From the sequence record LR597663: a stretch of 64,000 nt of DNA, one strand, 5' to 3'. Position 1 is the stretch's first letter. Each line of letters starts with the position of its first letter. The notes beneath the pieces were generated by a model, which was not told the DNA's origin, ran no database searches, and saw only the letters and a program-made list of their open reading frames with translations. This DNA comes from Escherichia phage VpaE1_ev78. Made by a program: the position numbers and the translations under genes. Below, one piece after another: positions 1,137 through 59,525 of this stretch.

Positions 1137-2552
1137 ATGAGCGAATTATTTAAACATGCGCACCTTCATGCAGGTCGAACTGAAAATGGTGCTGTAAACC
1201 ATACTTCATCAATGTCTGCTCTTGTGGACTTTTATAAAGCTGCTGGTTCAAGCCGTAGCAATGTAGAAGTCTTACCAGACCTGTTCTACAAAGCTTTGCG
1301 TGAGGATGTTGATGTTGCAGTTCGTATTTTGCTTCATATGCGAGATGTACGAGAAGGTATGGGTGAGCGTAAAGCCTTCAGAACTGTTTTGCTTCAAGCG
1401 ATTGAAGACAAAGTTTTAGAGCCTGTACAGGTTCTTCGCATTATGGATAAGATTGCAGAACTTGGTCGTTTTGATGACTTCAAAATCTTCGTAGGTACTC
1501 GTTTCGAGACAGATGCCTTCAAACATTTAGAAGCAGCATTACTAGACCCTGCAACAGCAGGTTTGGCAGCCAAGTGGCTACCACGAGTCAAACCACGTCA
1601 TAAGCAGTTTGTAAAACGTTTCTGCAAGTTTGCCAACTTGAGTGAGAAAGAGTACCGCACACTGTTGTCTGCACTATCTGATACAGTTGAGCAAAAAATC
1701 TCTGCTAATGAGTTTGGTAAGATTGACTACAGTAAGATTCCTTCTCTTGCTGCTGCACGTTACCAAAAGCTGTTTAACCGTAAAGATGGAGAGCGTTACA
1801 AAGCTTACATCGAGTCCTTATCAAAGGGTGAGGCTAAGATTAATGCTGGTGCTGTTTACCCATACGATGTGATTAAATCTGTCAAGCATGGTAATGCAGA
1901 TGTTGCTAATGAGCAGTGGAAAGCACTACCAAACTGGATGGCAGAAGGTGAAAACATCTTATGTATGACTGATGTTTCAAGCTCAATGTCTTGGGTGAAT
2001 TTTGGCTCCATTACTGCTCTTGATATTGGTGTATCACTTGCCTTGTATGTAGCAGAACGCAATACAGGTTGCTTTAAGGATGAGTTGATGGTTTATTCAA
2101 CAAACCCTCACTTCATCGAACTGAGTGGTGATTTACGAAACCGTCATCGTCAGGTGATGCGACACGTTGAATATGGCTCAACCAACTTACAAGCAGCTTT
2201 TGACCGCATTCTTGAGATAGGTAAGAGAAACAACTTGACTCAGGAAGATATGCCAAGTAAGCTTATCATCTTCTCCGATATGGAGTTCAATCAGGTTGAT
2301 GGAGCTAACGGTCGTACAAACTTTGAAGCAATTCAGAGCAAGTACAAGAAAGCTGGATATGAGATGCCACAACTGGTATTCTGGTACTTAGCAAACCGTA
2401 ATGGTACTTGCGAAGTGTCTGTTAAGGATAACGGTGTAGCAATGGTATCTGGTTTCTCTCCAGCCACTTTAAAAGCTCTGCTTGGTGGTGAGAAGTTTGA
2501 CCCAATCAGCGTAATGCTCAAAGCAGTAATGATTGACCGCTATATCTGGTAA
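1137..2552 (+). CDS. vWA-domain protein with MIDAS motif and N-terminal helical domain (DUF2828-like / Ro60-like architecture)
   Basis: C-terminal half contains DxSxS (TDVSSSM), a conserved Thr (GSTNL) and Asp (FSDMEF) typical of vWA MIDAS; N-terminal 260 aa predicted helical; RBS GAGAAGAGAG upstream. Confidence 0.75.
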   Translation: MSELFKHAHLHAGRTENGAVNHTSSMSALVDFYKAAGSSRSNVEVLPDLFYKALREDVDVAVRILLHMRDVREGMGERKAFRTVLLQAIEDKVLEPVQVLRIMDKIAELGRFDDFKIFVGTRFETDAFKHLEAALLDPATAGLAAKWLPRVKPRHKQFVKRFCKFANLSEKEYRTLLSALSDTVEQKISANEFGKIDYSKIPSLAAARYQKLFNRKDGERYKAYIESLSKGEAKINAGAVYPYDVIKSVKHGNADVANEQWKALPNWMAEGENILCMTDVSSSMSWVNFGSITALDIGVSLALYVAERNTGCFKDELMVYSTNPHFIELSGDLRNRHRQVMRHVEYGSTNLQAAFDRILEIGKRNNLTQEDMPSKLIIFSDMEFNQVDGANGRTNFEAIQSKYKKAGYEMPQLVFWYLANRNGTCEVSVKDNGVAMVSGFSPATLKALLGGEKFDPISVMLKAVMIDRYIW

Positions 2553-2569: not shown

Positions 2570-2598
2570 ATTGACAATGTGTTTAATACCCTTTAATA
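2570..2598 (+). promoter_or_regulatory. sigma70-like promoter (TTGACA, 17 nt, TAATAT); -35 sits inside inverted repeat AAGGGTATT / AATACCCTT
   Basis: Hexamers and spacing read directly from sequence. Confidence 0.55.
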
Positions 2599-2661
2599 TG
2601 TTCTACATAGAAACGAAATGAGAGCTTTTCTAAGATACTGAAAAATATTTTAAAAAAGTTC

Positions 2662-2691
2662 TTGACAATCACTAAAAAATAATGTTAAAGT
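2662..2691 (+). promoter_or_regulatory. sigma70-like promoter upstream of tRNA array (TTGACA, 17-18 nt, TTAAAG/TAAAGT)
   Basis: Consensus -35, approximate -10, about 25 nt upstream of first tRNA. Confidence 0.5.
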
Positions 2692-2716
2692 GGTTACATA
2701 GAGTTTGAAAAGTTTA

Positions 2717-2794
2717 TCTCTGTTTAGCTCAGCTTGGTAGAGCGTTCCGTTTGGGGCGGTAAGGCCGGAGGTTCAAGTCCTCCAACAGAGACCA
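2717..2794 (+). tRNA. tRNA-Pro (anticodon TGG)
   Basis: Hand-folded cloverleaf: 7-bp acceptor CTCTGTT/AACAGAG, D-loop AGCTTGGTAG, T-arm GGAGG-TTCAAGT-CCTCC, anticodon loop TTTGGGG, CCA encoded. Confidence 0.7.
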
Positions 2795-2801
2795 AATTAA
2801 T

Positions 2802-2879
2802 GTTCCAGTAGACAAAATGGTAAAGTCACCACTCTTTCAAAGTGGATATCTGAGGGTTCAAATCCCTTCTGGAACGCCA
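2802..2879 (+). tRNA. tRNA-Glu (anticodon TTC)
   Basis: Acceptor GTTCCAG/CTGGAAC, anticodon arm CCACT-CTTTCAA-AGTGG, T-loop TTCAAAT, CCA encoded. Confidence 0.7.
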
Positions 2880-2885
2880 GTTTTG

Positions 2886-2910
2886 ACAGAAGACCAATTG
2901 CAGCAAACTT
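2886..2910 (+). repeat. tRNA-spacer motif ACAGAAGACC-N5-CAGCAA, copy 1; followed about 60 nt later by GGTCTGG
   Basis: Motif recurs at about 3053, 3449 and 3535, partial copy near 6168. Confidence 0.6.
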
Positions 2911-2970
2911 AATCTTATTCATCTGAAGGTAAATCGGACAAAGAAGAGATTTGGTCTGGTCATTAAGAAT

Positions 2971-3047
2971 TGCGGGTATAGAGAAAGGGCGTCTCACATG
3001 TCTCATTAGCATGGTATCGGCAGGTTCGACTCCTGCACCCGCCTCCA
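2971..3047 (+). tRNA. tRNA with CAT anticodon (Met / initiator / Ile-lysidine type undetermined)
   Basis: T-arm GCAGG-TTCGACT-CCTGC, acceptor with 1:72 mismatch, anticodon stem built on palindromic CATG; position 37 appears to be T, which is atypical. Confidence 0.5.
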
Positions 3048-3052
3048 AATTT

Positions 3053-3077
3053 ACAGAAGACCGTTTACAGCAATATT
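3053..3077 (+). repeat. tRNA-spacer motif ACAGAAGACC-N5-CAGCAA, copy 2
   Basis: TTACAGAAGACCGTTTACAGCAA; GGTCTGG about 58 nt downstream. Confidence 0.6.
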
Positions 3078-3131
3078 TATTAAATTTTTAGCGGAAAAAA
3101 TTGAAAGATACGGTCTGGTAACACTAAACAT

Positions 3132-3208
3132 GGTTAGGAAGCACATAAGGTATGTGCGGTCGCCTGTTAAGCGAATGGCACAGGGTTCGAATCCCTGACT
3201 AACCGCCA
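3132..3208 (+). tRNA. tRNA-Asn (anticodon GTT)
   Basis: Acceptor GGTTAGG/ACTAACC, anticodon loop CTGTTAA, T-arm CAGGG-TTCGAAT-CCCTG, CCA encoded. Confidence 0.7.
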
Positions 3209-3217
3209 AATTTAAAT

Positions 3218-3305
3218 GTGTCGTTATCCCGTAGATGGTAGCGGTGGGGACTGTAAATCCCTTGTCATTGAGACTCGGTAGGTTCGACTCCTACACGGCA
3301 CACCA
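3218..3305 (+). tRNA. tRNA-Tyr (anticodon GTA), long variable arm
   Basis: 88 nt; acceptor GTGTCGT/ACGGCAC, anticodon arm GGGGA-CTGTAAA-TCCCT, T-loop TTCGACT. Confidence 0.7.
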
Positions 3306-3310
3306 ATAAA

Positions 3311-3388
3311 GGTTATGTAGTTTAATTTGGTTAAAATACTCCCCTGTCACGGGAGATGATGAGGGTTCAAATCCCTTCGTAACCGCCA
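3311..3388 (+). tRNA. tRNA-Asp (anticodon GTC)
   Basis: Acceptor GGTTATG/CGTAACC, anticodon arm CTCCC-CTGTCAC-GGGAG, T-loop TTCAAAT. Confidence 0.7.
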
Positions 3389-3448
3389 ATTTTGAGAGGG
3401 CTATTTAGCCCCTCCCTTAAAGAGTTCTTACGAGTATTCTTTAAAGGA

Positions 3449-3472
3449 GCAGAAGACCAAATACAGCAAGTT
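3449..3472 (+). repeat. tRNA-spacer motif, copy 3 (GCAGAAGACCAAATACAGCAA)
   Basis: Same motif family; GGTCTGG about 67 nt downstream. Confidence 0.55.
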
Positions 3473-3534
3473 ATTTAAAATTTCAAGCCAATTTAATTTT
3501 GAAAAATTTAAAACTTGGTCTGGCTCAACAAATT

Positions 3535-3560
3535 TACAGAAGACCGTTTACAGCAAAACT
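3535..3560 (+). repeat. tRNA-spacer motif, copy 4 (TTACAGAAGACCGTTTACAGCAA)
   Basis: Identical core to copy 2. Confidence 0.6.
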
Positions 3561-3591
3561 TAACAATCTATTTCTCCGGTAAAGAAAAGGC

Positions 3592-3626
3592 GAAGGTTCG
3601 ATTCCTTCACTCGGCAGATGTCGAGT
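3592..3626 (+). ncRNA. tRNA-like minihelix: canonical T-arm (GAAGG-TTCGATT-CCTTC) directly followed by a 7-bp acceptor-like hairpin (ACTCGGC-AGAT-GTCGAGT); no D or anticodon arm found
   Basis: T-loop consensus present but no complementary 5-prime acceptor strand within 120 nt upstream; complementary strand lies immediately downstream. Confidence 0.4.
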
Positions 3627-3668
3627 TGGTGTAATGGTAGTACTTAAGATGATAAACAACGGTCTGGT

Positions 3669-3688
3669 AATTATCTTTGTAGATAAGT
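3669..3688 (+). repeat. hairpin element TTATCT-TTGT-AGATAA preceded by GGTCTGG
   Basis: Second copy with inverted loop (TTATCT-ACAA-AGATAA) at about 3795-3810; the two flank roughly 105 nt. Confidence 0.55.
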
Positions 3689-3792
3689 TATTAAGCTTAC
3701 CTGTGAGTATGCGACCACAAAGGGTGAAAGGGTAAATTCTAGATTTAAACCCAAAAAGGCACATCGCTACAGACCTTAAGCAAGTCTGGGTA

Positions 3793-3812
3793 GCTTATCT
3801 ACAAAGATAATT
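3793..3812 (+). repeat. hairpin element TTATCT-ACAA-AGATAA, second copy, preceded by GTCTGGG
   Basis: Reverse complement of the copy at 3669-3688. Confidence 0.55.
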
Positions 3813-3816
3813 TAAT

Positions 3817-3892
3817 GGAAGTGTAGCAGAATGGTGATGCGGCAGACTTTTAATCTGACAGGCGATGGGTTCGAATCCCTCCACTTCTACCA
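3817..3892 (+). tRNA. tRNA-Lys (anticodon TTT)
   Basis: Acceptor GGAAGTG/CACTTCT, anticodon loop CTTTTAA, T-loop TTCGAAT; two outer T-stem mismatches. Confidence 0.6.
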
Positions 3893-3896
3893 ATAT

Positions 3897-3973
3897 GGTT
3901 CAGTCGCAGATAAGGTAATGCAAGGGTCTCATAAGCCCTATGAATGTGGGTTCGATTCCCATCTGAACCTCCA
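3897..3973 (+). tRNA. tRNA-Met (anticodon CAT)
   Basis: Acceptor GGTTCAG/CTGAACC, anticodon arm AGGGT-CTCATAA-GCCCT, T-loop TTCGATT, CCA encoded. Confidence 0.65.
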
Positions 3974-3974
3974 A

Positions 3975-4050
3975 GCTGGTATAGTTAAGAAGGTTATAAC
4001 ACTCCCCTGATAAGGGAACATCGGTGGTTCGATTCCACCTACCAGTACCA
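3975..4050 (+). tRNA. tRNA-Ile (anticodon GAT)
   Basis: Acceptor GCTGGTA/TACCAGT, anticodon loop CTGATAA, T-arm GGTGG-TTCGATT-CCACC. Confidence 0.65.
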
Positions 4051-4065
4051 ATTTCAATAAAGTTG

Positions 4066-4094
4066 TTGACATTGAGATGTGACTACTTTATAGT
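4066..4094 (+). promoter_or_regulatory. sigma70-like promoter (TTGACA, 17 nt, TATAGT)
   Basis: Near-consensus hexamers with 17-nt spacer inside the tRNA array. Confidence 0.6.
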
Positions 4095-4298
4095 AACCTT
4101 AGTTTTCGTTGCGTAGCGTCTATTTTGCAAATTTAAAATAAATGCAAACGACAATGTTTTTCTGGCAGTAGCTTGATAGGCTAAACACCAGTGAGGTCTT
4201 CCAATCCCTCATCAAAGAATTTGGCGTACTCGCCCACGGTATGATTAATAAGGTGGGCATCTTTAAGGGCTTTCTAAGAGAGTCTTTAAAGATAATTA

Positions 4299-4380
4299 CG
4301 GGGCGTATCTCAGCGGTCTTCTAAACCGCCGTTAACCGAGTAAGTGGAGTATGCGGGTTCGAGTCCTGCCGCCTCGACCA
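4299..4380 (+). tRNA. atypical tRNA-like gene (82 nt): acceptor and T-arm canonical, anticodon-like hairpin with loop CTTCTAA (TCT, Arg-like), no recognisable D-arm, 23-nt extra region
   Basis: Acceptor CGGGGCG/CGCCTCG, T-arm GCGGG-TTCGAGT-CCTGC, CCA encoded; the only strong internal hairpin is GCGGT-CTTCTAA-ACCGC right after positions 8-9. Confidence 0.45.
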
Positions 4381-4394
4381 ATTTTGGAGAAATC

Positions 4395-4742
4395 ATGAAA
4401 ACTTGTATTAGGTGCAAACTTAGCAAGGATGAAAATGATTTCTACATGAAAGATGGTAGGAGAACTCATTCATACTGTAAAAAGTGTGTTAATGAGCAAA
4501 CCATAGAAAGACAAAGAGCACTTAAACTCTCAGCTATTGAGTACAAAGGTGGGGTTTGTCACGATTGTGGTAAAAAGTATCATCCAGCAGTGTATGACTT
4601 CCATCATTTGAATCCTTCAGAGAAAGATTTTAACATTGGTCATAGGAAAAGCCTTAAGTTCTCTCAAGAACTAAAAGATGAACTTGACAAATGTGTTTTG
4701 CTATGTTCAAATTGCCATAGGGTAAGACATGCAAAGTATTAG
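4395..4742 (+). CDS. HNH homing endonuclease
   Basis: Motif DFHHLNPSEKDF...CVLLCSNCHRVRH; ORF-track start lies inside the upstream tRNA, so trimmed to ATG at 4395 (RBS GGAGA). Confidence 0.8.
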   Translation: MKTCIRCKLSKDENDFYMKDGRRTHSYCKKCVNEQTIERQRALKLSAIEYKGGVCHDCGKKYHPAVYDFHHLNPSEKDFNIGHRKSLKFSQELKDELDKCVLLCSNCHRVRHAKY

Positions 4743-4885
4743 TTAGCAGATTACTTAGACGACCTAAGCGGGTCTTCCTGTAGGGAGGTGGTCTGTATCT
4801 CATGTTTTCCAGAACATGTAAATAATCTGAGAAGAAGCTTGACAGTGTTGAGATAACAGGGTAAGCTTCGAATTATAGTTTTAAT

Positions 4886-4956
4886 AGGGGTGAGCTATGG
4901 CAGCAATAGAGTCTCCAAAATTCTTGATTAGAGTTCGAATCTCTACACCCCTGCCA
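4886..4956 (+). tRNA. tRNA-Trp (anticodon CCA), short with reduced D-arm
   Basis: Acceptor AGGGGTG/CACCCCT, anticodon arm AGAGT-CTCCAAA-ATTCT, T-arm TAGAG-TTCGAAT-CTCTA; about 71 nt. Confidence 0.55.
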
Positions 4957-4970
4957 GAACAGGTGCTTGT

Positions 4971-5375
4971 ATGAAACTTTGTAGAAAATGTTCTCAAGAA
5001 AAGCCTTTAAGCTGCTTTCATAAAAGAGGTAATGGCTATCAGTCTGCTTGCAAAGATTGTAAAGCTAAGTACTCAGCAAAGAGATACAAAGAAGACCCTA
5101 CTTATAAAGCAAAAAGAAAAGTTAGGGCAAAATATGACAAAAAGAGGAACAGAGAGTTCCTTAGTAGATATAAAAAGTTTTGCAAATGCAGAATATGTGG
5201 CGAATCTGAGCCAGTAGCTTTGGATTTTCATCACTTAGACCCTAAAGAGAAAGATTTTGCTCCAAGCAATCTTAAAACTTACTCTAGGGGCACTATTAAG
5301 CGTGAAGTCCGTAAGTGTGTTGTGCTTTGTTCAAACTGTCATAGGAAAGTTCATGAAGGACTGTTAAGTATTTAA
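4971..5375 (+). CDS. HNH homing endonuclease (paralogue of 4395..4742)
   Basis: Motif DFHHLDPKEKDF...CVVLCSNCHRKVH; RBS AGGTG. Confidence 0.8.
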   Translation: MKLCRKCSQEKPLSCFHKRGNGYQSACKDCKAKYSAKRYKEDPTYKAKRKVRAKYDKKRNREFLSRYKKFCKCRICGESEPVALDFHHLDPKEKDFAPSNLKTYSRGTIKREVRKCVVLCSNCHRKVHEGLLSI

Positions 5376-5388
5376 CAGTCTTATTAGG

Positions 5389-5476
5389 GGTAGGTAGCGG
5401 CTAATGGTAGCCAAACTGTCTTGAAAACAGTTGCCACTGTAGAGATACGGTGAGGGTTCGACTCCTTTACTTACCG
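5389..5476 (+). tRNA. tRNA-Ser (anticodon TGA), long variable arm
   Basis: Acceptor GGTAGGT/ACTTACC, anticodon arm ACTGT-CTTGAAA-ACAGT, T-loop TTCGACT; CCA not encoded. Confidence 0.65.
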
Positions 5477-5633
5477 CCTAATAAGATTTAAAGCCAAGCT
5501 TCATTCGGATGTTGCTTTGGTATCCCGCGTGTATTGTTGTACACACTGATAAAGCACCTAGTAGGTGTCACGGAGAAGAGATAATATCAAGCTCTCCAAA
5601 GGTTCTAGTCACCGGATTAAACAAGACTATGCA

Positions 5634-5654
5634 AAGACCTTTTTAGGTCTTTTT
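5634..5654 (+). terminator. possible intrinsic terminator or processing hairpin (AAGACC-TTTTTA-GGTCTT plus TTTT)
   Basis: Short hairpin followed by T-run inside the tRNA array. Confidence 0.3.
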
Positions 5655-5733
5655 AGAGGGCTTCTAAGGTTATTACAGCTTGTTGTGGAACCTTGTTGCT
5701 TAGGTTCTTAGAAGTTCTCTAAAAAGATTTAAT

Positions 5734-5811
5734 GGGAGATTGACGGTAATTGGTAAACCTATCTCGCTTAGAACGAGATGTTTGAGGGTTCGAATCCCTT
5801 GTCTCCTACCA
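5734..5811 (+). tRNA. tRNA with TAG anticodon (nominally Leu) but type-I short variable arm
   Basis: Acceptor GGGAGAT/GTCTCCT, anticodon arm TCTCG-CTTAGAA-CGAGA, T-arm GAGGG-TTCGAAT-CCCTT; variable region about 5 nt. Confidence 0.55.
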
Positions 5812-5818
5812 AATTAAT

Positions 5819-5894
5819 GCAGGTGTAGCAAAATGGTTATGCGGCTGACTCTTAATCAGTAAGACGATGGGTTCAATTCCCTCCACCTGTACCA
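5819..5894 (+). tRNA. tRNA-Lys (anticodon CTT)
   Basis: Acceptor GCAGGTG/CACCTGT, anticodon loop CTCTTAA, T-loop TTCAATT; similar to the 3817 tRNA. Confidence 0.6.
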
Positions 5895-5899
5895 AAAAT

Positions 5900-5975
5900 G
5901 GGGTCATAGTTTATATGGTTAAAATTCGAGTTTTGCAAACTTGGGAACTGAGTTCAATTCTCAGTGACTCCACCA
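5900..5975 (+). tRNA. tRNA-Ala (anticodon TGC)
   Basis: Acceptor GGGGTCA/TGACTCC, anticodon arm CGAGT-TTTGCAA-ACTTG, T-arm CTGAG-TTCAATT-CTCAG. Confidence 0.65.
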
Positions 5976-5981
5976 ATTAGT

Positions 5982-6056
5982 GCATCCATAGTTTAAACGG
6001 GAAAATTACAGTCTTCCAAACTGAGGTTGAGGGTTCGATTCCCTCTGGATGCTCCA
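5982..6056 (+). tRNA. tRNA-Gly (anticodon TCC)
   Basis: Acceptor GCATCCA/TGGATGC, anticodon loop CTTCCAA, T-arm GAGGG-TTCGATT-CCCTC. Confidence 0.65.
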
Positions 6057-6063
6057 AATTAAT

Positions 6064-6139
6064 GCTCCTATCGTATAATTGGCTATTACGGTTGCCTTGT
6101 AAGTAACTTATCAGGGTTCGAATCCTTGTGGGAGCACCA
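6064..6139 (+). tRNA. tRNA-Thr (anticodon TGT)
   Basis: Acceptor GCTCCTA/TGGGAGC, anticodon arm GTTGC-CTTGTAA-GTAAC, T-loop TTCGAAT. Confidence 0.65.
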
Positions 6140-6236
6140 ATTTAGAGGTCAAGTGAAAGACCGCTTTGAGTCAACTGAAGACCGTAACAAATTCCACGGA
6201 GTTGAGTTAGCGGCACAACTCCAGACCTCTTCTCAC

Positions 6237-6311
6237 ACTCGCTTAGTTTATATGGTAAAACACCACCCTTACAAGATGAAGAAAAAGGTTCAAGTCCTTT
6301 AGTGAGTACCA
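6237..6311 (+). tRNA. tRNA, probably Val (anticodon TAC); weak anticodon stem
   Basis: Acceptor ACTCGCT/AGTGAGT, T-arm AAAGG-TTCAAGT-CCTTT, anticodon loop CTTACAA with two stem mismatches. Confidence 0.45.
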
Positions 6312-6312
6312 T

Positions 6313-6390
6313 GTTCCAGTATCCCAATTGGCAGAGGATGCAAGCTCAAACCTTGTACTAGTGATGGTTCGAATCCATCTTGGAACACCA
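6313..6390 (+). tRNA. tRNA with CAA anticodon (nominally Leu) but type-I short variable arm
   Basis: Acceptor GTTCCAG/TTGGAAC, anticodon arm GCAAG-CTCAAAC-CTTGT, T-arm GATGG-TTCGAAT-CCATC. Confidence 0.5.
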
Positions 6391-6395
6391 ATTTT

Positions 6396-6471
6396 GCAGG
6401 ATTAGTTCAAATGGATAGAGCAACAGTCTACGAAGCTGTTAATAGGGGTTCAAATCCCTTATCCTGCGCCA
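6396..6471 (+). tRNA. tRNA-Arg (anticodon ACG)
   Basis: Acceptor GCAGGAT/ATCCTGC, anticodon arm ACAGT-CTACGAA-GCTGT, T-loop TTCAAAT. Confidence 0.65.
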
Positions 6472-6490
6472 ATTTAAAGAGGCTATTTAG

Positions 6491-7048
6491 ATGAGATATT
6501 TGAAGTATGCTTCATGGATTTTCTTAGCTTTGTTAGAACCATTTGCAGCAATCTTAGCAGTTATCTTAGCACCTTTTGTAGTTCCATTCTACAGTGAGAA
6601 GAAAGGACACTTACCTTTCGGGTTCAGATGGATGGAGACATATGACAACCCAATTGATGGTGATGAAGGTCACGTTAAAAGATGGGCTAATATTAGATGG
6701 ATTGGTAAACTAGGTGTCTACATGCAAAGAGTCGGATGGCTCTGGAGAAACAAAGCTTATAACTTCTCTTACCATGTGTTAGGAAGAGATGTAAAAGATG
6801 TTACTAAGTGGAAAGGTAATATCAACGTAAGTTCTAACCCTGAAGATAATCAGACAGGTTATCTCCTAATGTGGAACAGTAATGCTTGGGGATTATTCGC
6901 TTTTACCCCATCAATTAAAATCTTTGGTAAACAGTTTTACTGGAGAATTTATATTGGGTGGAAGCTAAAAAGTGTTGTCCCAGAAGAAAGAGCATTCTCA
7001 AGGGAAAGAGTTATGTTGGCATTCTTTATTCATCCACTAAGAAAGTAA
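6491..7048 (+). CDS. Trp-rich membrane protein of unknown function (185 aa) inside the tRNA array
   Basis: RBS AAAGAGG; hydrophobic N-terminal segment WIFLALLEPFAAILAVILAPFVVPF; many Trp residues. Confidence 0.65.
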   Translation: MRYLKYASWIFLALLEPFAAILAVILAPFVVPFYSEKKGHLPFGFRWMETYDNPIDGDEGHVKRWANIRWIGKLGVYMQRVGWLWRNKAYNFSYHVLGRDVKDVTKWKGNINVSSNPEDNQTGYLLMWNSNAWGLFAFTPSIKIFGKQFYWRIYIGWKLKSVVPEERAFSRERVMLAFFIHPLRK

Positions 7049-7056
7049 AGATTTAA

Positions 7057-7132
7057 AGGGGATTAGTTTACAAGGTTAAAACCTCGGTCTTTGAAATCGA
7101 AGAAGTTGGTTCAATTCCAACATCCCCCGCCA
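7057..7132 (+). tRNA. tRNA-Gln (anticodon TTG)
   Basis: Acceptor AGGGGAT/ATCCCCC with 1:72 mismatch, anticodon loop CTTTGAA, T-arm GTTGG-TTCAATT-CCAAC. Confidence 0.6.
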
Positions 7133-7134
7133 AT

Positions 7135-7213
7135 GCTCCATTACTCCAATTGGCAGAGAGGCCAGACTTAAAATCTGTGTTATGTATCGGTTCGAATCCG
7201 ATATGGAGTACCA
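7135..7213 (+). tRNA. tRNA with TAA anticodon (nominally Leu) but type-I variable arm (about 7 nt)
   Basis: Acceptor GCTCCAT/ATGGAGT, anticodon loop CTTAAAA, T-arm ATCGG-TTCGAAT-CCGAT. Confidence 0.5.
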
Positions 7214-7218
7214 AATTT

Positions 7219-7294
7219 AGCGGTATAGCATAACTGGCAATGCAGCAGCCTCTGAAGCTGTCCTATTAAGGTTCAAATCCTTATGCCGCTGCCA
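7219..7294 (+). tRNA. tRNA-Gln (anticodon CTG)
   Basis: Acceptor AGCGGTA/TGCCGCT, anticodon arm GCAGC-CTCTGAA-GCTGT, T-arm TAAGG-TTCAAAT-CCTTA. Confidence 0.6.
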
Positions 7295-7325
7295 CTTCTA
7301 AGGATTCTTACGAGAGTCCTTAAAT

Positions 7326-7401
7326 GTGGCCTTATCATAAATGGTAATGACCCATGCTGTGAACATGGTCTATACGGGTTCAAATCCCGTAGGTCACCCC
7401 A
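7326..7401 (+). tRNA. tRNA-His (anticodon GTG)
   Basis: Acceptor GTGGCCT/AGGTCAC, perfect anticodon arm CCATG-CTGTGAA-CATGG, T-arm ACGGG-TTCAAAT-CCCGT. Confidence 0.7.
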
Positions 7402-7406
7402 ATTTA

Positions 7407-7481
7407 TAGTCCAAGTAGCTTATATGGTTAAAGCGCGTGTCTGAAAAACATGAGAAGAGGGTTCAAATCCCACTGGACTAC
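7407..7481 (+). tRNA. tRNA-Phe (anticodon GAA)
   Basis: Acceptor TAGTCCA/TGGACTA, anticodon arm CGTGT-CTGAAAA-ACATG, T-loop TTCAAAT; CCA not fully encoded. Confidence 0.6.
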
Positions 7482-7499
7482 CAATTTCAAAGGTGCTTA

Positions 7500-8234
7500 A
7501 TGAAAGAGATGACAGAACAAGGTAAGGAGATTTTTAATCTCTTAAAAACCGGTAAAGGGTTCTCTAACCCACTTATTACTGGTGCAGCAGTTCTCGGTGG
7601 AACCGTAGCTGCTTCTACATCACTTGTAAGCTCTATTAGTTCTGTAACAGACCCTACAATGAAGGAGAAACTTGTTGCTGCTGGACTTACAACAGTCCTT
7701 CTAAACAGCTTTACAACAAGCCTTACAAGCACTACAGCAACTACTAAAACTCTGACAGACTACGGTCAAAAGTCTATTGATGAGTTTTCATCACGTATGC
7801 AGGTAGCAAAGGGGTATTCCAATGTTATGGGTGCAGCAGGAGAACAAGTTGGTTGTACACCATTCAGTGGTATCATGGGTGTTGCTACAGAGTATGGTCA
7901 AAAAGCTATTGACATGATGAACAGTACACTAGATAGTGTTAATGGTGTGTTAAGTGACTTGCAAGATGCTATTGATAAGGGTCTTGATACTGTTTCTGAT
8001 TTAGCTAATCAGGCTGTTAGTAAGATTAATGAAGGTATTTCAAAGATTACAGCTTATGCAGATGAAGTTGTGCAGATGATTGAAGAAGAAGCTGCCCTTA
8101 TTGCAGAGTACCTTAAAACGAATATCAATGGGTTCTTAGCAGGTATCTTACCAGACTGGTTTGATGATGCCTGTAAAACTGGTGTGATTGACACTATTGC
8201 AACACCAGAAATGAAGAGCGCATTACAGAAATAA
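7500..8234 (+). CDS. hypothetical Ser/Thr/Ala-rich protein (244 aa) inside the tRNA array
   Basis: ORF-track start overlaps tRNA-Phe; trimmed to in-frame ATG at 7500; low-complexity T/S/A/G-rich middle. Confidence 0.5.
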   Translation: MKEMTEQGKEIFNLLKTGKGFSNPLITGAAVLGGTVAASTSLVSSISSVTDPTMKEKLVAAGLTTVLLNSFTTSLTSTTATTKTLTDYGQKSIDEFSSRMQVAKGYSNVMGAAGEQVGCTPFSGIMGVATEYGQKAIDMMNSTLDSVNGVLSDLQDAIDKGLDTVSDLANQAVSKINEGISKITAYADEVVQMIEEEAALIAEYLKTNINGFLAGILPDWFDDACKTGVIDTIATPEMKSALQK

Positions 8235-8236
8235 AT

Positions 8237-8329
8237 GGAAGATTAACCCTAAAAGGTAAGGGAGCAGTTTGCTAAACTGCCAGTAGCTGAGAAATCGGTG
8301 TACCAGTTCAAGTCTGGTATCTTCCTCCA
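8237..8329 (+). tRNA. tRNA-Ser (anticodon GCT), long variable arm
   Basis: 93 nt; acceptor GGAAGAT/ATCTTCC, anticodon arm GCAGT-TTGCTAA-ACTGC, T-arm ACCAG-TTCAAGT-CTGGT; starts 3 nt after upstream stop. Confidence 0.7.
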
Positions 8330-8333
8330 ATTT

Positions 8334-8409
8334 GAATCCGTGACAGAAATGGCTATGTGCCTGTCTGCAAAACAGGTTTATAAGGGTTCGAGTCCCTTCG
8401 GATTCTCCA
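8334..8409 (+). tRNA. tRNA-Cys (anticodon GCA)
   Basis: Acceptor GAATCCG/CGGATTC, anticodon arm CCTGT-CTGCAAA-ACAGG, T-arm AAGGG-TTCGAGT-CCCTT. Confidence 0.7.
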
Positions 8410-8446
8410 AGTTATTTTACTCTCTCTCAATTAAAATAATAATAAT

Positions 8447-8516
8447 GCCCTGCTATAAGTATTCTTCCTTTCGCTACCGAAGAGTATTTTTAGACAGGGC
8501 TTTTTTACAGAGTTAT
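8447..8516 (+). terminator. intrinsic terminator closing the tRNA array (long imperfect hairpin GCCCTG...CAGGGC plus TTTTTT)
   Basis: Stem arms with internal sub-stem, followed by six T. Confidence 0.55.
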
Positions 8517-59204: not shown

Positions 59205-59525
59205 ATGAGCAAAGTTTATAACACTCGTAAATTACAGATTTTCGTACTGTGCCAGTTTATGGCTAAAGAATACAACTTCTACTATTGTGGTACAGGTTTT
59301 ATTAGCGATGATGATGGCTCATACCTCCCATTCAAAGAGGCTGTAAAACTCTTCAATGAAGAGAAAAGTTCTAAGAAAGATATTGAAAAGGTTAAGCTAA
59401 CCTACAGCAAGAAAGATAAGAAGATTATCTGCCTAGATAACTTTGTGAAAGTTACTGGAGAAGCAAAAGAGTTTATGGATGAGAGTGAGATTTCATTCAC
59501 AAGCATCTTGAAAGTAGCTCAGTAA
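59205..59525 (+). CDS. hypothetical protein (106 aa)
   Basis: Coupled ORF followed by terminator. Confidence 0.45.
   Translation: MSKVYNTRKLQIFVLCQFMAKEYNFYYCGTGFISDDDGSYLPFKEAVKLFNEEKSSKKDIEKVKLTYSKKDKKIICLDNFVKVTGEAKEFMDESEISFTSILKVAQ

What the first reader, a model, noticed from the sequence alone, without database searches (positions are those of the whole stretch)
3414..7327. Palindromic hairpin elements (TTATCT-N4-AGATAA and TTCTTACGAG / CTTTAAAG families) scattered through the tRNA array
Two copies of a hairpin with inverted 4-nt loop (3671-3686 and 3795-3810) bracket about 105 nt of non-coding sequence. Related imperfect palindromes built on TTCTTACGAG or CTTCTAAG plus CTTTAAAG recur at about 3414-3447, 4262-4295, 5655-5716 and 7301-7327. 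This repeated secondary-structure vocabulary could mark RNase III or RNase E processing sites or recombination hot spots for tRNA gene shuffling.
Basis: seen in the sequence. Interest (0 to 1): 0.45.

Follow-up and report, generated by a model that had tools for sequence, protein, structure and literature searches.

The report
Y-RNA-like genes hidden among phage tRNAs
The flagged hairpins are real, but they are the stems of several conserved, unannotated small structured RNAs, including four Y-RNA-like genes, that sit between the tRNA genes just downstream of a Ro60-like protein gene in a Felix O1-type phage.

Summary
The window is a Felix O1-like phage (Felixounavirus). All the hairpins exist, but they are not one scattered palindrome family.

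- **The 3671-3686 / 3795-3810 pair.** These are the two strands of one 23-bp long-range helix. It closes a conserved ~145-nt structured RNA (S5, 3669-3812). Relatives keep this helix through compensatory changes but lose the local palindromes.
- **The TTCTTACGAG / CTTTAAAG hairpins.** The copies at 3412-3449, 4259-4293 and 7299-7322 form a small same-strand paralogous family. With the 27-bp stem at 5643-5732, each ends 1-6 nt before the next tRNA or ncRNA.
- **The larger result.** ORF 1137-2552, directly upstream of the array, has a Ro60 fold. The spacers hold four units (U1-U4, 2884-3670) with a bulged closing helix followed by UACAGCAA.
  - The 11 helix pairs are 100% paired across 20 sequences, and 5 of them show changes on both sides.
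  - U4 adds a T arm, a loop-closed acceptor-like stem and a D arm, which is the YrlA architecture.
  - The same kind of unit lies beside Ro-like genes in Yersinia, Klebsiella, Mycobacterium and Campylobacter phages.

A processing or end-protecting role for the hairpins is plausible but untested. The natural deletions I mapped break at the U-unit direct repeats and at T-arm microhomology, not at the palindromes.

The parts
1137..2552 (+). Ro60-like protein gene (471 aa; Pfam DUF2828 + DUF7788, with a vWA domain), directly upstream of the tRNA/ncRNA array.
   Evidence: Pfam scan. AlphaFold2 model with pLDDT 89.3 and pTM 0.88. The top 12 Foldseek PDB hits are all Ro60/Rsr, aligned over the full length. 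tblastn gives 34% identity, E 1e-72, to the mycobacteriophage 'Ro-like RNA binding protein'.
2571..2691 (+). Two sigma-70-like promoters (2571-2599 and 2662-2691) that probably drive the array.
   Evidence: Consensus scan, 10 of 12 matches each. Conserved in SUSP2, L008 and L009. Function is inferred.
2884..2962 (+). U1, a Y-RNA-like unit. Closing helix: 5' UGAC-[AGA]-AGACCAA ... UUGGUCU-[G]-GUCA 3', followed on the 5' side by UUGCAGCAA. It fills the spacer between tRNA-Glu and tRNA-Met.
   Evidence: (D8).
3051..3121 (+). U2, a Y-RNA-like unit (UUAC-[AGA]-AGACCGU ... ACGGUCU-[G]-GUAA). It fills the spacer between tRNA-Met and tRNA-Asn.
3398..3449 (+). G+C-rich hairpin (3398-3411) plus hairpin H-A (3412-3449; apical UUCUUACGAG), lying between tRNA-Asp and U3. 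The 3' GGAG of H-A overlaps the first bases of the U3 lower stem.
   Evidence: Fold dG -21.1, z -4.4. Conserved in 7 relatives with compensatory pairs at alignment columns 8/17 and 31/46.
3447..3526 (+). U3, a Y-RNA-like unit (GAGC-[AGA]-AGACCAA ... UUGGUCU-[G]-GCUC).
3534..3670 (+). U4, a YrlA-like unit. It has the same closing helix as U2, and inside it a variable-arm-like hairpin, a T arm (3592-3608), an acceptor-like stem closed by a 4-nt loop (3609-3615 / 3620-3626) and a D arm (3629-3643). This is the order of a circularly permuted tRNA.
   Evidence: Found by model R1 although it was not in the training set (E 6.7e-9). 94% of 185 cells are paired, and the acceptor-like stem has changes on both sides at 3 of 7 pairs.
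3669..3812 (+). S5, a ~145-nt structured RNA of unknown class. Closing helix P1 is 3669-3692 / 3789-3812, which is the finding's two 'hairpins'. It contains an inner hairpin at 3767-3793 (CUAC-AGACC-UUAAGCAA-GUCUGG-GUAG) and ends 4 nt before tRNA-Lys(UUU).
   Evidence: I2. Fold dG -48.3, z -5.6. RNAalifold gives 35 pairs, 13 with compensatory changes.
4259..4293 (+). H-C hairpin. It is a paralogue of H-A and H-B. It is the 3'-terminal stem of the conserved tmRNA-like RNA (~4101-4298) and ends 5 nt before the tRNA-like gene at 4299-4380.
   Evidence: I10. Fold dG -17.6, z -6.3. Conserved in Sf14, L008 and L009; replaced by a longer hairpin of unrelated sequence in Moogle and SUSP2. Paralogue alignment.
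5643..5732 (+). H-D, a 27-bp stem (5643-5669 / 5706-5732) with an invariant apical UUGUUGCU. It is the 3' end of a conserved ~255-nt spacer RNA (5479-5733) and ends 1 nt before tRNA-Leu(UAG).
   Evidence: I1. Fold dG -40.2, z -7.2. 27 pairs, 5 with compensatory changes.
7299..7322 (+). H-B hairpin (10 bp, UACG loop) in the 31-nt spacer between tRNA-Gln(CUG) and tRNA-His.
   Evidence: Fold dG -11.6, z -4.9. Conserved in Sf14, L008 and L009.

Best explanation
The flagged palindromes are helices of several different small structured RNAs. These RNAs are co-transcribed with the tRNAs of a Felix O1-type phage, immediately downstream of a Ro60-like protein gene.

1. **The 3671/3795 pair** is the 23-bp closing helix of one ~145-nt RNA, S5.
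2. **H-A, H-B and H-C**, together with the long stem H-D, are same-strand stems that end 1-6 nt before the next tRNA or ncRNA.
   - I infer that RNase P cleavage of the downstream tRNA leaves them as 3'-terminal stems.
   - Such stems would delimit the upstream RNA module and protect it from 3' exonucleases.
   - The two longest stems could also be cut by RNase III.
3. **The spacers between 2884 and 3670** encode four Y-RNA-like units.
   - Each has a bulged helix formed by its 5' and 3' ends, followed by single-stranded UACAGCAA.
   - U4 also carries a tRNA-like domain in YrlA order.
   - I infer that these are the RNA partners of the adjacent Ro60 homologue, and that they are released by the tRNA-processing enzymes acting on the flanking tRNAs.

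**Shown:** the structures, their covariation, the Ro60 fold, and the recurrence of the same unit next to Ro-like genes in unrelated phages.

**Inferred:** expression, the processing route, binding to the Ro60-like protein, and the biological role.
For: **The protein.** The model of ORF 1137-2552 matches only Ro60/Rsr structures at the top of the Foldseek list, over its full length. Its family includes the mycobacteriophage 'Ro-like RNA binding protein'.

**The U units.**
- The motif occurs 4 times against 0 expected. GGTCTGG occurs only at the four partner sites.
- MFE folds give the same pattern each time: 4-bp lower stem, 3-nt bulge, 7-8-bp upper stem, 1-nt bulge.
- Across 20 sequences, 220 of 220 cells are paired. 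Five of the 11 pairs show changes on both sides. No shuffle out of 500 reached the observed values. Slid controls were 23-47% paired.
- The G.U pairs form only on the + strand.
- Model R1 was built from U1-U3. In the 64-kb window it finds only U1-U4.
- In distant phages, R1 finds units just after the Ro-like gene in Yersinia phage P778 (E 1.9e-7 and 0.0074) and Klebsiella phage FBKp34 (E 3.4e-4 and 0.034).
- Sequence reading and a generic helix/CAGCAA scan show units beside the Ro-like gene in Mycobacterium phage Kingsolomon and Campylobacter phage Los1. Each has a closing helix followed by ACAGCAA, and one Kingsolomon unit has T, closed-acceptor and D arms.

**U4.** Three different acceptor-like stem sequences all pair: GUCGAGU/ACUCGGC, GAAGGGU/ACCCUUC and CGUGU/ACACG.

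**S5 P1.** Seven or more positions show compensatory changes, and the local palindrome is absent from the other alleles.

**H-D.** Five compensatory pairs.

**H-A, H-B, H-C.** They align as paralogues, are all on the + strand, and are conserved at the same positions in relatives.

**Precedent.**
- YrlA RNAs lie within 4 kb of Ro60 on the same strand, and are described as circularly permuted tRNAs with closed acceptor stems (PMC4201824; bioRxiv 10.1101/312249).
- The Ro60 of Thermus phage phiLo binds two phage-encoded Y-like RNAs (PMC12135203).
- The PhageMaP preprint reports that Bas63 gp130, upstream of that phage's tRNAs, is Ro60-like, and speculates that Y RNAs lie among the tRNA genes (PMC11482910).
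Against: - No expression, end-mapping or binding data were available.
- The published YrlA 5' motif GNCGAAN0-1G (and the CGAA motif of phiLo) is absent. The units have CAGAAGACC and ACAGCAA instead.
- No Rfam family matches.
- The protein is DUF2828-type, not annotated as TROVE. Its sequence match to PDB Ro60 is not significant (E 0.91).
- H-A, H-B and H-C show little covariation in their apical 10 bp, so their RNA-level role rests mainly on conservation, shared orientation and position.
- H-A overlaps the first bases of the U3 lower stem, so the two cannot be fully formed at the same time.
- Two Straboviridae phages with a homologous protein (Aeh1, XZ1) show no unit next to the gene.
Confidence: 0.66

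Rival explanations
1. The hairpins are chiefly endonuclease signals (RNase III or RNase E) that cut the polycistronic tRNA transcript, and have no role as parts of stable RNAs.
For: S5 P1 (23 bp) and H-D (27 bp) are long enough for RNase III. All the stems lie between mature RNAs.
Against: H-A, H-B and H-C have only 10-16 bp. The sequences enclosed by or next to the stems are themselves highly conserved and structured: the S5 interior, the 5479-5642 spacer and the tmRNA-like RNA. That is not expected for discarded spacers. RNase P and tRNA 3' processing already account for cuts at these positions.
Confidence: 0.2
2. The palindromes and repeats are DNA-level elements: recombination hot spots, or mobile miniature palindromic repeats that shuffle tRNA genes.
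For: The array is mosaic. VSe11 has lost 3080-3528 by recombination between the 34-nt direct repeats at the 5' ends of U2 and U4. FG1m fused tRNA-Asn and tRNA-Lys through 14 nt of T-arm identity. The S5 interior is 68% identical between the window and BPSELC-1, while the flanks are 98.6-100% identical.
Against: None of the deletion breakpoints mapped here lies in a flagged palindrome. The elements sit at the same positions in genera whose Ro-like protein is only 63-89% identical. They are all on one strand. They show RNA-type compensatory and G.U changes. They do not occur elsewhere in the 64 kb beyond chance.
Confidence: 0.08
3. U4 is the acceptor piece of a circularly permuted (two-piece) tmRNA whose tag-coding part lies at 4144-4179. 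ARAGORN calls it this way in phage Moogle, and the genome announcements report 'ssrA'.
For: ARAGORN reports a permuted tmRNA at L004 1618-2366 with tag ANDNVFLAVA**. PMC4319497 and PMC4392139 report ssrA in Moogle and Felix O1. Moogle U4 has a 7-bp acceptor stem followed by GCCA. Rfam tmRNA models weakly match the tag region (E about 2e-4 to 4e-3).
Against: The U4 acceptor-like stem lacks G3.U70: it is C3-G70 in the window and A3-U70 in Moogle. It is closed by a loop, and in SUSP2 and Sf14 it is only 5 bp with no CCA. Three complete tRNA genes and S5 lie between U4 and the tag. U4 shares its closing helix and ACAGCAA with U1-U3, which have no tRNA-like part. YrlA-like units with the same hallmark lie beside Ro-like genes in phages where no tag region was found with a simple pattern. 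ARAGORN finds no tmRNA in this window, in Felix O1, in SUSP2 or in Sf14.
Confidence: 0.08
4. The elements are transcription signals: promoters overlapping the TTGACA/TTTACA at the start of the U units, intrinsic terminators, or operator palindromes for a DNA-binding protein.
For: U1 begins with TTGACA, and U2 and U4 begin with TTTACA. The scan lists 3050-3077 as a weak promoter-like site, 9 of 12 matches.
Against: Those bases covary with their 3' partners (UGAC/GUCA, UUAC/GUAA, GAGC/GCUC, UUGC/GCAA) and are not -35-like in U3, P778 or FBKp34. None of the flagged + strand hairpins is followed by a U run or listed as terminator-like. The asymmetric apical sequences are conserved in one orientation only.
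Confidence: 0.04

Closest known systems
Bacterial and mycobacteriophage YrlA / YrlB Y RNAs (Chen et al. 2014, PMC4201824; YrlA structure, bioRxiv 10.1101/312249)
   Same: - Encoded within about 1.2 kb of a Ro60-fold gene and on the same strand.
- Several RNAs per locus.
- The 5' and 3' ends pair into a bulged stem.
- One member (U4) has a variable-arm-like hairpin, a T arm, a loop-closed acceptor-like stem and a D arm in the YrlA order, with U8, A14, G18G19, A21 and the GGTTCGATTCC T loop.
- The shorter members lack the tRNA-like domain, as YrlB does.
   Different: - The GNCGAAN0-1G motif is absent. The conserved features here are C-[AGA]-AGACC / GGUCU-[G]-G and single-stranded UACAGCAA.
- The protein partner is DUF2828-type rather than annotated as TROVE.
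- The genes are interleaved with tRNA genes, so the flanking tRNAs would define their ends.
- Neither RNA modification nor protein binding has been tested.
Thermus phage phiLo Ro60 with Yrl1 and Yrl2 (PMC12135203)
   Same: A phage-encoded Ro60 homologue, which is also the best structural match to the window protein, with Y-like RNAs encoded next to its gene.
   Different: The phiLo RNAs were picked by a CGAA motif and lie upstream of the gene. There is no tRNA array. Binding to Ro60 and to host PNPase was shown for phiLo and has not been shown here.
Metazoan Y RNAs
   Same: A stem formed by the 5' and 3' ends, with a conserved bulged helix as the Ro60 site, and a variable internal module.
   Different: There is no sequence similarity of the GGUCCGA type on the 5' strand. 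In these phage RNAs GGUCUGG is on the 3' strand.
Stable RNAs C and D in the phage T4 tRNA gene cluster (own knowledge, not checked here)
   Same: Small stable non-tRNA RNAs encoded inside a phage tRNA cluster and released by the tRNA-processing machinery.
   Different: No sequence relation was tested, and T4 has no adjacent Ro60-like gene.
Two-piece (circularly permuted) tmRNA
   Same: In U4 the T arm and 3' acceptor strand precede the 5' acceptor strand. A tmRNA-like tag region lies 500 nt downstream.
   Different: U4 has no G3.U70, its acceptor-like stem is closed, and it has a true D arm. Complete tRNAs lie between U4 and the tag (see the membership test).

Membership tests
Y RNA, YrlA-type (U4) and YrlB-like (U1-U3) | Encoded near a Ro60 orthologue (within about 4 kb) and on the same strand. 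| tested here: met
   U1-U4 lie 330-1120 nt downstream of ORF 1137-2552, on the same strand. The ORF has a Ro60 fold.
Y RNA, YrlA-type (U4) and YrlB-like (U1-U3) | The 5' and 3' ends pair into a long stem containing a conserved bulged helix, which is the Ro60 binding module. | tested here: met
   11-bp helix with 3-nt and 1-nt bulges. 100% paired across 20 sequences, with changes on both sides at 5 pairs. The same design is seen in P778, FBKp34 and Kingsolomon.
Y RNA, YrlA-type (U4) and YrlB-like (U1-U3) | The conserved 5' motif GNCGAAN0-1G (CGAA). | tested here: not met
   None of the units contains CGAA. The 5' strand reads (N)CAGAAGACC. This lowers the claim that they are members of the published YrlA family. 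It does not lower the claim that they work like Y RNAs.
Y RNA, YrlA-type (U4) and YrlB-like (U1-U3) | A tRNA-like domain: T arm, loop-closed acceptor-like stem and D arm, in that order, with conserved tRNA nucleotides. | tested here: met
   Met for U4 only. T arm 3592-3608, acceptor-like stem 3609-3615/3620-3626, D arm 3629-3643. These three helices are 100% paired in 5 sequences, and the acceptor-like stem covaries.
Y RNA, YrlA-type (U4) and YrlB-like (U1-U3) | Physical association with the Ro60 protein, and modification by TruB and DusA. | not testable with these tools
   Needs RIP, EMSA and modification mapping.
Permuted (two-piece) tmRNA, as called by ARAGORN in Moogle | G3.U70 alanine identity pair in the acceptor stem, with an ACCA 3' end. 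| tested here: not met
   In U4 the pair is C3-G70 in the window and A3-U70 in Moogle. A CCA is encoded only in Moogle. In SUSP2 and Sf14 the stem is 5 bp and closed.
Permuted (two-piece) tmRNA, as called by ARAGORN in Moogle | A coding piece that continues from the 5' acceptor strand into the tag reading frame. | tested here: not met
   S5 and three complete tRNA genes (Lys, Met, Ile) lie between U4 and the tag at 4144-4179. The tag region has its own promoter-like site at 4066-4094.
RNase III processing hairpins (as in T7 early RNA) | A double-stranded stem of about 20 bp or more. | tested here: inconclusive
   Met by S5 P1 (23 bp) and H-D (27 bp). Not met by H-A, H-B or H-C (10-16 bp). Cleavage itself cannot be tested here.
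Intrinsic terminators | A G+C-rich stem followed by a U run. | tested here: not met
   None of the flagged + strand hairpins is in the terminator-like list, and none is followed by a T run.
Dispersed mobile palindromes (REP- or MITE-like) | Many copies at non-homologous sites, in either orientation, with variable presence between strains. | tested here: not met
   Copies are confined to the array, are all on the + strand, and lie at the same positions across genera.

The most novel reading that the evidence does not exclude
The array downstream of the Ro60-like gene may be a complete phage RNA toolkit, in which the pieces of a trans-translation-like system are encoded separately.

- **A tag-encoding RNA (4101-4298).** It encodes ANDNVFLAVA**. 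Within these phages the frame shows only synonymous changes or stop-to-stop changes. In the lambdoid-prophage homologue (ANEEMYLAVA*) the changes are synonymous or mostly conservative.
- **A possible alanine-accepting partner.** Either the D-armless tRNA-like RNA at 4299-4380, which has G3.U70, A73, an encoded CCA and a UCU anticodon loop, or the YrlA-like U4 after RNase P cleavage.
- **The ACAGCAA-type Y-like RNAs.** These would recruit the Ro60 homologue, which the PhageMaP preprint reports as a counter of the Ppl defence, to this machinery or to host exonucleases.
Probability: 0.1. Interest if true: 0.9.

Novelty: new variant of a known kind. Interest (0 to 1): 0.62.

Why it matters
**Annotation.** Felix O1-type phages are classical typing and therapy phages, yet the roughly 1.5 kb of 'spacers' in their tRNA array is unannotated. 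In old records it is mis-annotated as small ORFs on the opposite strand.

**A testable link to anti-defence.** This work gives exact coordinates and a structural definition for candidate RNA partners of the phage Ro60 homologue. A recent preprint reports that this protein counters the Ppl anti-phage system, and only guessed that Y RNAs might hide among the tRNA genes.
- That idea can now be tested directly: delete or mutate U1-U4, pull down the protein, and map RNA ends.

**A wider family.** The ACAGCAA-type unit recurs beside DUF2828 Ro-like genes in phages of Proteobacteria, Actinobacteria and Campylobacter.
- Homologues of the protein were found in 709 phage records.
- This points to a distinct and widespread class of Ro-associated RNAs that Rfam and the CGAA-based searches miss.

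**Genome dynamics.** The direct repeats created by these paralogous RNA genes mediate loss of tRNA genes in natural isolates.

Tried and rejected
- **Rfam at permissive thresholds**. Nothing matched U1-U4, S5 or the hairpins. The only hits were chance miRNA-like matches to the long stems.
- **A genuine split or permuted tRNA gene in U4, processed through a bulge-helix-bulge motif.** Rejected. The flanking helix is shared with U1-U3, which have no tRNA parts, and the architecture matches YrlA.
- **Hairpin-ribozyme resemblance** (ACAGAAG... / ...CUGGUA). This was only recalled from memory. No Rfam hairpin-family hit supported it, so I dropped it.
- **Promoters at the TTGACA/TTTACA of the U units.** Rejected, because those bases covary as a stem.
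- **Terminators.** None found at these sites.
- **Direct sequence match of the protein to PDB Ro60.** Not significant (E 0.91). Only the fold comparison settled the question.
- **Supplementary tables of Chen et al. 2014**, to see whether Felix O1 was among their 22 phages. They are not held.
- **Literature search for Felixounavirus transcriptomes.** Nothing usable.
- **An Ounavirinae relative lacking the Ro-like gene, as a co-occurrence control.** None found.
- **Model R1 on Aeh1, XZ1, Kingsolomon and Los1.** No hits. The model is too specific to Felix-like sequences. The units in Kingsolomon and Los1 were found by reading the intergenic DNA and by a generic helix/CAGCAA scan. That scan has a background of about 5 chance hits per 64 kb.

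Full report
**What the window is.** Bases 2600-8500 match 352 phage records. The best matches are Felixounavirus genomes at 95-99% identity (Felix O1, wV8 and many others). ARAGORN finds 26 tRNA genes on the + strand between 2718 and 8409. Two small HNH endonuclease ORFs (4396-4742 and 4971-5375) are absent from most relatives.

**Checking the observation.**
- The two 16-mers at 3671-3686 and 3795-3810 are exactly as described. The pattern has 4 matches with up to 1 mismatch, against 0.41 expected.
- They are reverse complements of each other. They form the core of one inverted repeat, 3669-3690 / 3791-3812, 95% complementary with 100 nt between the arms.
- The other flagged hairpins are real, and their coordinates can be refined:
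  - H-A is at 3412-3449, preceded by a G+C-rich hairpin at 3398-3411.
  - H-C is at 4259-4293.
  - H-B is at 7299-7322.
  - The '5655-5716' element is the inner part of a 27-bp stem, 5643-5669 / 5706-5732.
- TTCTTACGAG as a bare word is hardly above chance. Its hairpin context and its conservation in relatives are what make it significant.

**The 3671/3795 pair is one helix.**
- In Salmonella phage BPSELC-1, Moogle, SUSP2 and Sf14, and in two metagenomic relatives (L008, L009), the ~145 nt between U4 and tRNA-Lys exist as diverged alleles. The interior is 68% identical to the window, while the flanks are 98.6-100% identical.
- The long-range pairing is kept in all of them. RNAalifold predicts 35 pairs, and 13 of them show compensatory changes. 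These include seven positions of the 23-bp closing stem and two of an inner hairpin, where CAGAC/GUCUG becomes CAAAC/GUUUG or CAGUC/GACUG.
- The local palindrome TTATCT-N4-AGATAA is not kept in the other alleles; for example, BPSELC-1 reads TTATCTTTGCAGTAGC.
Its fold has dG -48.3 and z -5.6. No Rfam family matches it.

**The hairpin family.**
- H-A, H-B and H-C align with one another as a ~30-nt hairpin, roughly UAAGGR-UUCU-UACG-AGAG-UCCUUAA. Each is conserved at its own position in relatives whose neighbouring Ro-like protein is only 63-89% identical.
- All copies have the same orientation. The apical sequence is asymmetric, which points to an RNA-level role rather than a DNA-level one.
- H-D has five compensatory pairs and an invariant apical UUGUUGCU.
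- Each stem ends just before the next mature 5' end:
  - S5 P1 ends 4 nt before tRNA-Lys.
  - H-C ends 5 nt before the tRNA-like gene at 4299.
  - H-D ends 1 nt before tRNA-Leu.
  - H-B ends 3 nt before tRNA-His.
  - H-A abuts U3.
- None is followed by a U run or listed as terminator-like.
- I infer that RNase P cleavage of the downstream tRNA leaves these stems at the 3' ends of the upstream RNA modules. There they would define the module and protect it. RNase III cleavage of the two long stems remains possible.

**What else is in the spacers.**
- The strongest repeat in the region is CAGAAGACCNNNTNCAGCAA, present four times against 0.00 expected (family D8).
- Each copy is followed 50-120 nt later by GGTCTGG. 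On the + strand of the whole 64 kb, that word occurs only at these four sites.
- The two segments pair as 5' NNNC-[AGA]-AGACCNN ... NNGGUCU-[G]-GNNN 3', and MFE folds recover this helix for all four units.
- The variable positions covary between paralogues and orthologues:
  - lower stem UGAC/GUCA, UUAC/GUAA, GAGC/GCUC or UUGC/GCAA;
  - upper stem ..CCAA/UUGG.. or ..CCGU/ACGG..
- In an alignment of 20 U1-U3 sequences from seven phages, all 220 cells are standard pairs. Five of the 11 pairs have changes on both sides (37 cells). No shuffle out of 500 reaches the observed values. Slid controls give 23-47% pairing.
- A covariance model built from that alignment finds only four places in the 64-kb window: U1-U3 and U4, which was not used in training (E 6.7e-9).

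**U4 is YrlA-like.**
- Inside the same closing helix, U4 (3534-3670) carries a variable-arm-like hairpin, a T arm (GAAGG-UUCGAUU-CCUUC), a 7-bp acceptor-like stem closed by a 4-nt loop, and a D arm with U8, A14, G18G19 and A21. This is the order of a circularly permuted tRNA.
- The acceptor-like stem has three unrelated sequences in relatives, and all of them pair:
  - window and Felix O1: GUCGAGU/ACUCGGC;
  - Moogle: GAAGGGU/ACCCUUC, followed by GCCA;
  - SUSP2 and Sf14: CGUGU/ACACG.
- This is the architecture described for bacterial YrlA Y RNAs: a Ro60-binding stem formed by the two ends, then V, T, closed acceptor and D elements, 'resembling circularly permuted tRNAs' (PMC4201824; bioRxiv 10.1101/312249).

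**The neighbouring protein.**
- ORF 1137-2552 lies directly upstream of the array. It has Pfam domains DUF2828 and DUF7788 and a weak vWA match.
- An AlphaFold2 model from a 40-sequence alignment (pLDDT 89.3, pTM 0.88) matches Ro60 and Rsr structures in the top 12 Foldseek hits, over its whole length. These include Thermus phage phiLo Ro60, Xenopus and human Ro60 (TM up to 0.67) and Deinococcus Rsr.
- tblastn finds homologues in 709 phage records, including mycobacteriophage proteins annotated 'Ro-like RNA binding protein' (34% identity, E 1e-72).
- The PhageMaP preprint reports that gp130 of Bas63, a Felixounavirus (PMC12609058, title listed), is structurally Ro60-like and lies just upstream of the tRNA genes. 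It also reports that gp130 counters the Ppl defence, and speculates that some annotated tRNAs might be Y RNAs (PMC11482910). By synteny this would be the orthologue of ORF 1137-2552. I did not check that directly, and the preprint identified no Y RNAs.

**Recurrence in unrelated phages.** Units of the same design lie next to the Ro-like gene, on the same strand, in four other lineages.

| Phage | Ro-like protein identity | What is there |
|---|---|---|
| Yersinia phage P778 | 55% | Three units with GC-[ANA]-GGACUNN ... NNAGUCC-[A]-GC followed by U(U/A)(A/U)CAGCAA. Model R1 finds two (E 1.9e-7 and 0.0074). |
| Klebsiella phage FBKp34 | 52% | At least three units, one with T, closed-acceptor and D arms. 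R1 finds two (E 3.4e-4 and 0.034). |
| Mycobacterium phage Kingsolomon | 34% | Three units, GGAC...ACAGCAA...GUCCAG, in the 380-nt gap after the gene. The middle one is YrlA-like. |
| Campylobacter phage Los1 | 37% | Two units just upstream of the gene, after a tRNA cluster. |

- A closing helix followed by single-stranded ACAGCAA is therefore the hallmark of an RNA family tied to DUF2828-type Ro-like genes.
- The family lacks the GNCGAAN0-1G / CGAA motif of published YrlA and phiLo Yrl RNAs (PMC4201824; PMC12135203). It is also absent from Rfam.
- For these reasons I file it as a new variant of the Y-RNA kind, not as a member of the YrlA family as published.

**Recombination.**
- Natural variants show that the array is plastic, but not at the palindromes.
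- VSe11 lacks 3080-3528. The junction lies in the 34-nt direct repeat shared by the 5' ends of U2 and U4. The deletion removes tRNA-Asn, tRNA-Tyr, tRNA-Asp and U3, and leaves an intact U unit.
- FG1m joins 3196 to 3867 through 14 nt of T-arm identity, which creates a hybrid tRNA.
- ESCO45 carries several deletions.
- The S5 alleles are exchanged between the conserved outer parts of P1.

**tmRNA question.**
- ARAGORN calls a permuted tmRNA in Moogle by combining the U4 T arm, acceptor strand and CCA with a tag-like frame 600 nt downstream. This is the 'ssrA' of the genome announcements.
- I reject U4 as a tmRNA acceptor piece, for the reasons in the membership test.
- The tag-like RNA itself appears to be real; see the items noticed in passing.

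**Limits.** Nothing here shows expression, ends or binding. The roles of S5, of the H hairpins and of the other spacer RNAs are inferred from structure, conservation and position.

Noticed in passing
window 4066-4298: A conserved ~200-nt RNA with its own strong promoter-like site (TTGACA-17-TATAGT, 4066-4094). It contains a tmRNA-like tag frame at 4144-4179, GCA AAC GAC AAT GTT TTT CTG GCA GTA GCT TGA TAG = ANDNVFLAVA**, with the stop codons in a hairpin loop. It is about 95% conserved even in relatives whose Ro-like protein is 63% identical. The only changes in the frame are synonymous (GAC/GAT) or stop-to-stop (TGA/TAA). Rfam tmRNA and tmRNA_permuted match weakly (16 and 29 bits). ARAGORN combines this tag with U4 into a 'permuted tmRNA' in Moogle. 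No convincing acceptor domain was identified.
   Followed up: partly
window 4299-4380: An unannotated tRNA-like gene that ARAGORN misses (Rfam tRNA 31.7 bits, above the gathering score). Its acceptor stem is C1-G72, G2-C71, G3.U70, G4-C69, followed by A73 and an encoded CCA, so it carries alanine-type identity elements. It also has an anticodon arm with loop CUUCUAA (UCU, Arg), no D arm, and a 20-nt insertion in the variable region. L008 keeps the anticodon stem through two compensatory changes. Sf14, Moogle, SUSP2, BPSELC-1 and P778 have an ordinary tRNA-Arg(UCU) at this position. The Felix O1 genome paper remarked that a tRNA for the over-used AGA codon was missing (PMC3185647).
   Followed up: partly
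L018 2950-3210 (E. coli WP4-S18-ESBL-08 chromosome, lambdoid prophage, between antiterminator Q and holin): A homologue of the tag-like RNA (81% identity to window 4135-4259) occurs in 339 of 5426 complete E. coli genomes: 97 chromosomal places and 247 plasmid places. It is unannotated. Here the tag is ANEEMYLAVA*, and its differences from the phage tag are synonymous or mostly conservative in that frame. A T-arm-containing helix follows it.
   Followed up: partly
window 5479-5642: The first 165 nt of the spacer between tRNA-Ser(UGA) and tRNA-Leu(UAG) are also conserved across genera. They fold into several hairpins, for example CACCUAGUAGGUG and GGAGAAGAGAUAAUAUCAAGCUCUCC. Together with H-D this makes a ~255-nt RNA of unknown class.
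   Followed up: partly
window 5670-5705 (apical part of H-D): The invariant UUGUUGCU in the apical loop of H-D is complementary to the AGCAA(CAA) motif that is conserved in the U units and in the loop of the S5 inner hairpin (UUAAGCAA). A loop-loop contact is conceivable, but this is pure speculation.
   Followed up: no
window 6140-6236: The spacer between tRNA-Thr and tRNA-Val is conserved in L009 and Sf14. It folds (z -3.5) with a closing stem AGAGGUC/GACCUCU (UAGGUC/GACCUA in L009) and contains GAAGACCG. It is another candidate small RNA.
   Followed up: partly
window 4384-4738 and 4880-5376: Two HNH endonuclease ORFs are insertions relative to the four relatives mapped (VSe11, ESCO45, FG1m, BPSELC-1). 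The second insertion also carries tRNA-Trp (4886-4956). These look like homing-endonuclease indels within the array.
   Followed up: partly
L013 1591-1662 (Salmonella phage FG1m): A deletion through 14 nt of shared T-arm sequence fused tRNA-Asn and tRNA-Lys into a hybrid gene that is annotated as tRNA-Asn. The same deletion removed U3, U4 and S5, while the Ro-like gene, U1 and U2 remain.
   Followed up: yes
L008 8495-8580 and L009 5088-5172: In the two metagenomic relatives, the spacer between tRNA-Lys and tRNA-Met holds an extra ~80-nt hairpin-forming insert that is absent from the window.
   Followed up: no
window 3534-3764 (- strand), and Felix O1 ORF91, ORF92, ORF94: Old GenBank records annotate small 'unknown' ORFs on the minus strand across the U units, S5 and the tRNAs. 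For example, Felix O1 ORF94 covers U4 and S5, and the equivalent 76-aa ORF in the window is 3534-3764. These are very probably artefacts of overlooking RNA genes.
   Followed up: no
window 59425-59440: A third exact match to TTATCT-N4-AGATAA (TTATCTGCCTAGATAA) lies far from the array, in sequence whose coding status I did not check. I take it to be a chance match.
   Followed up: no
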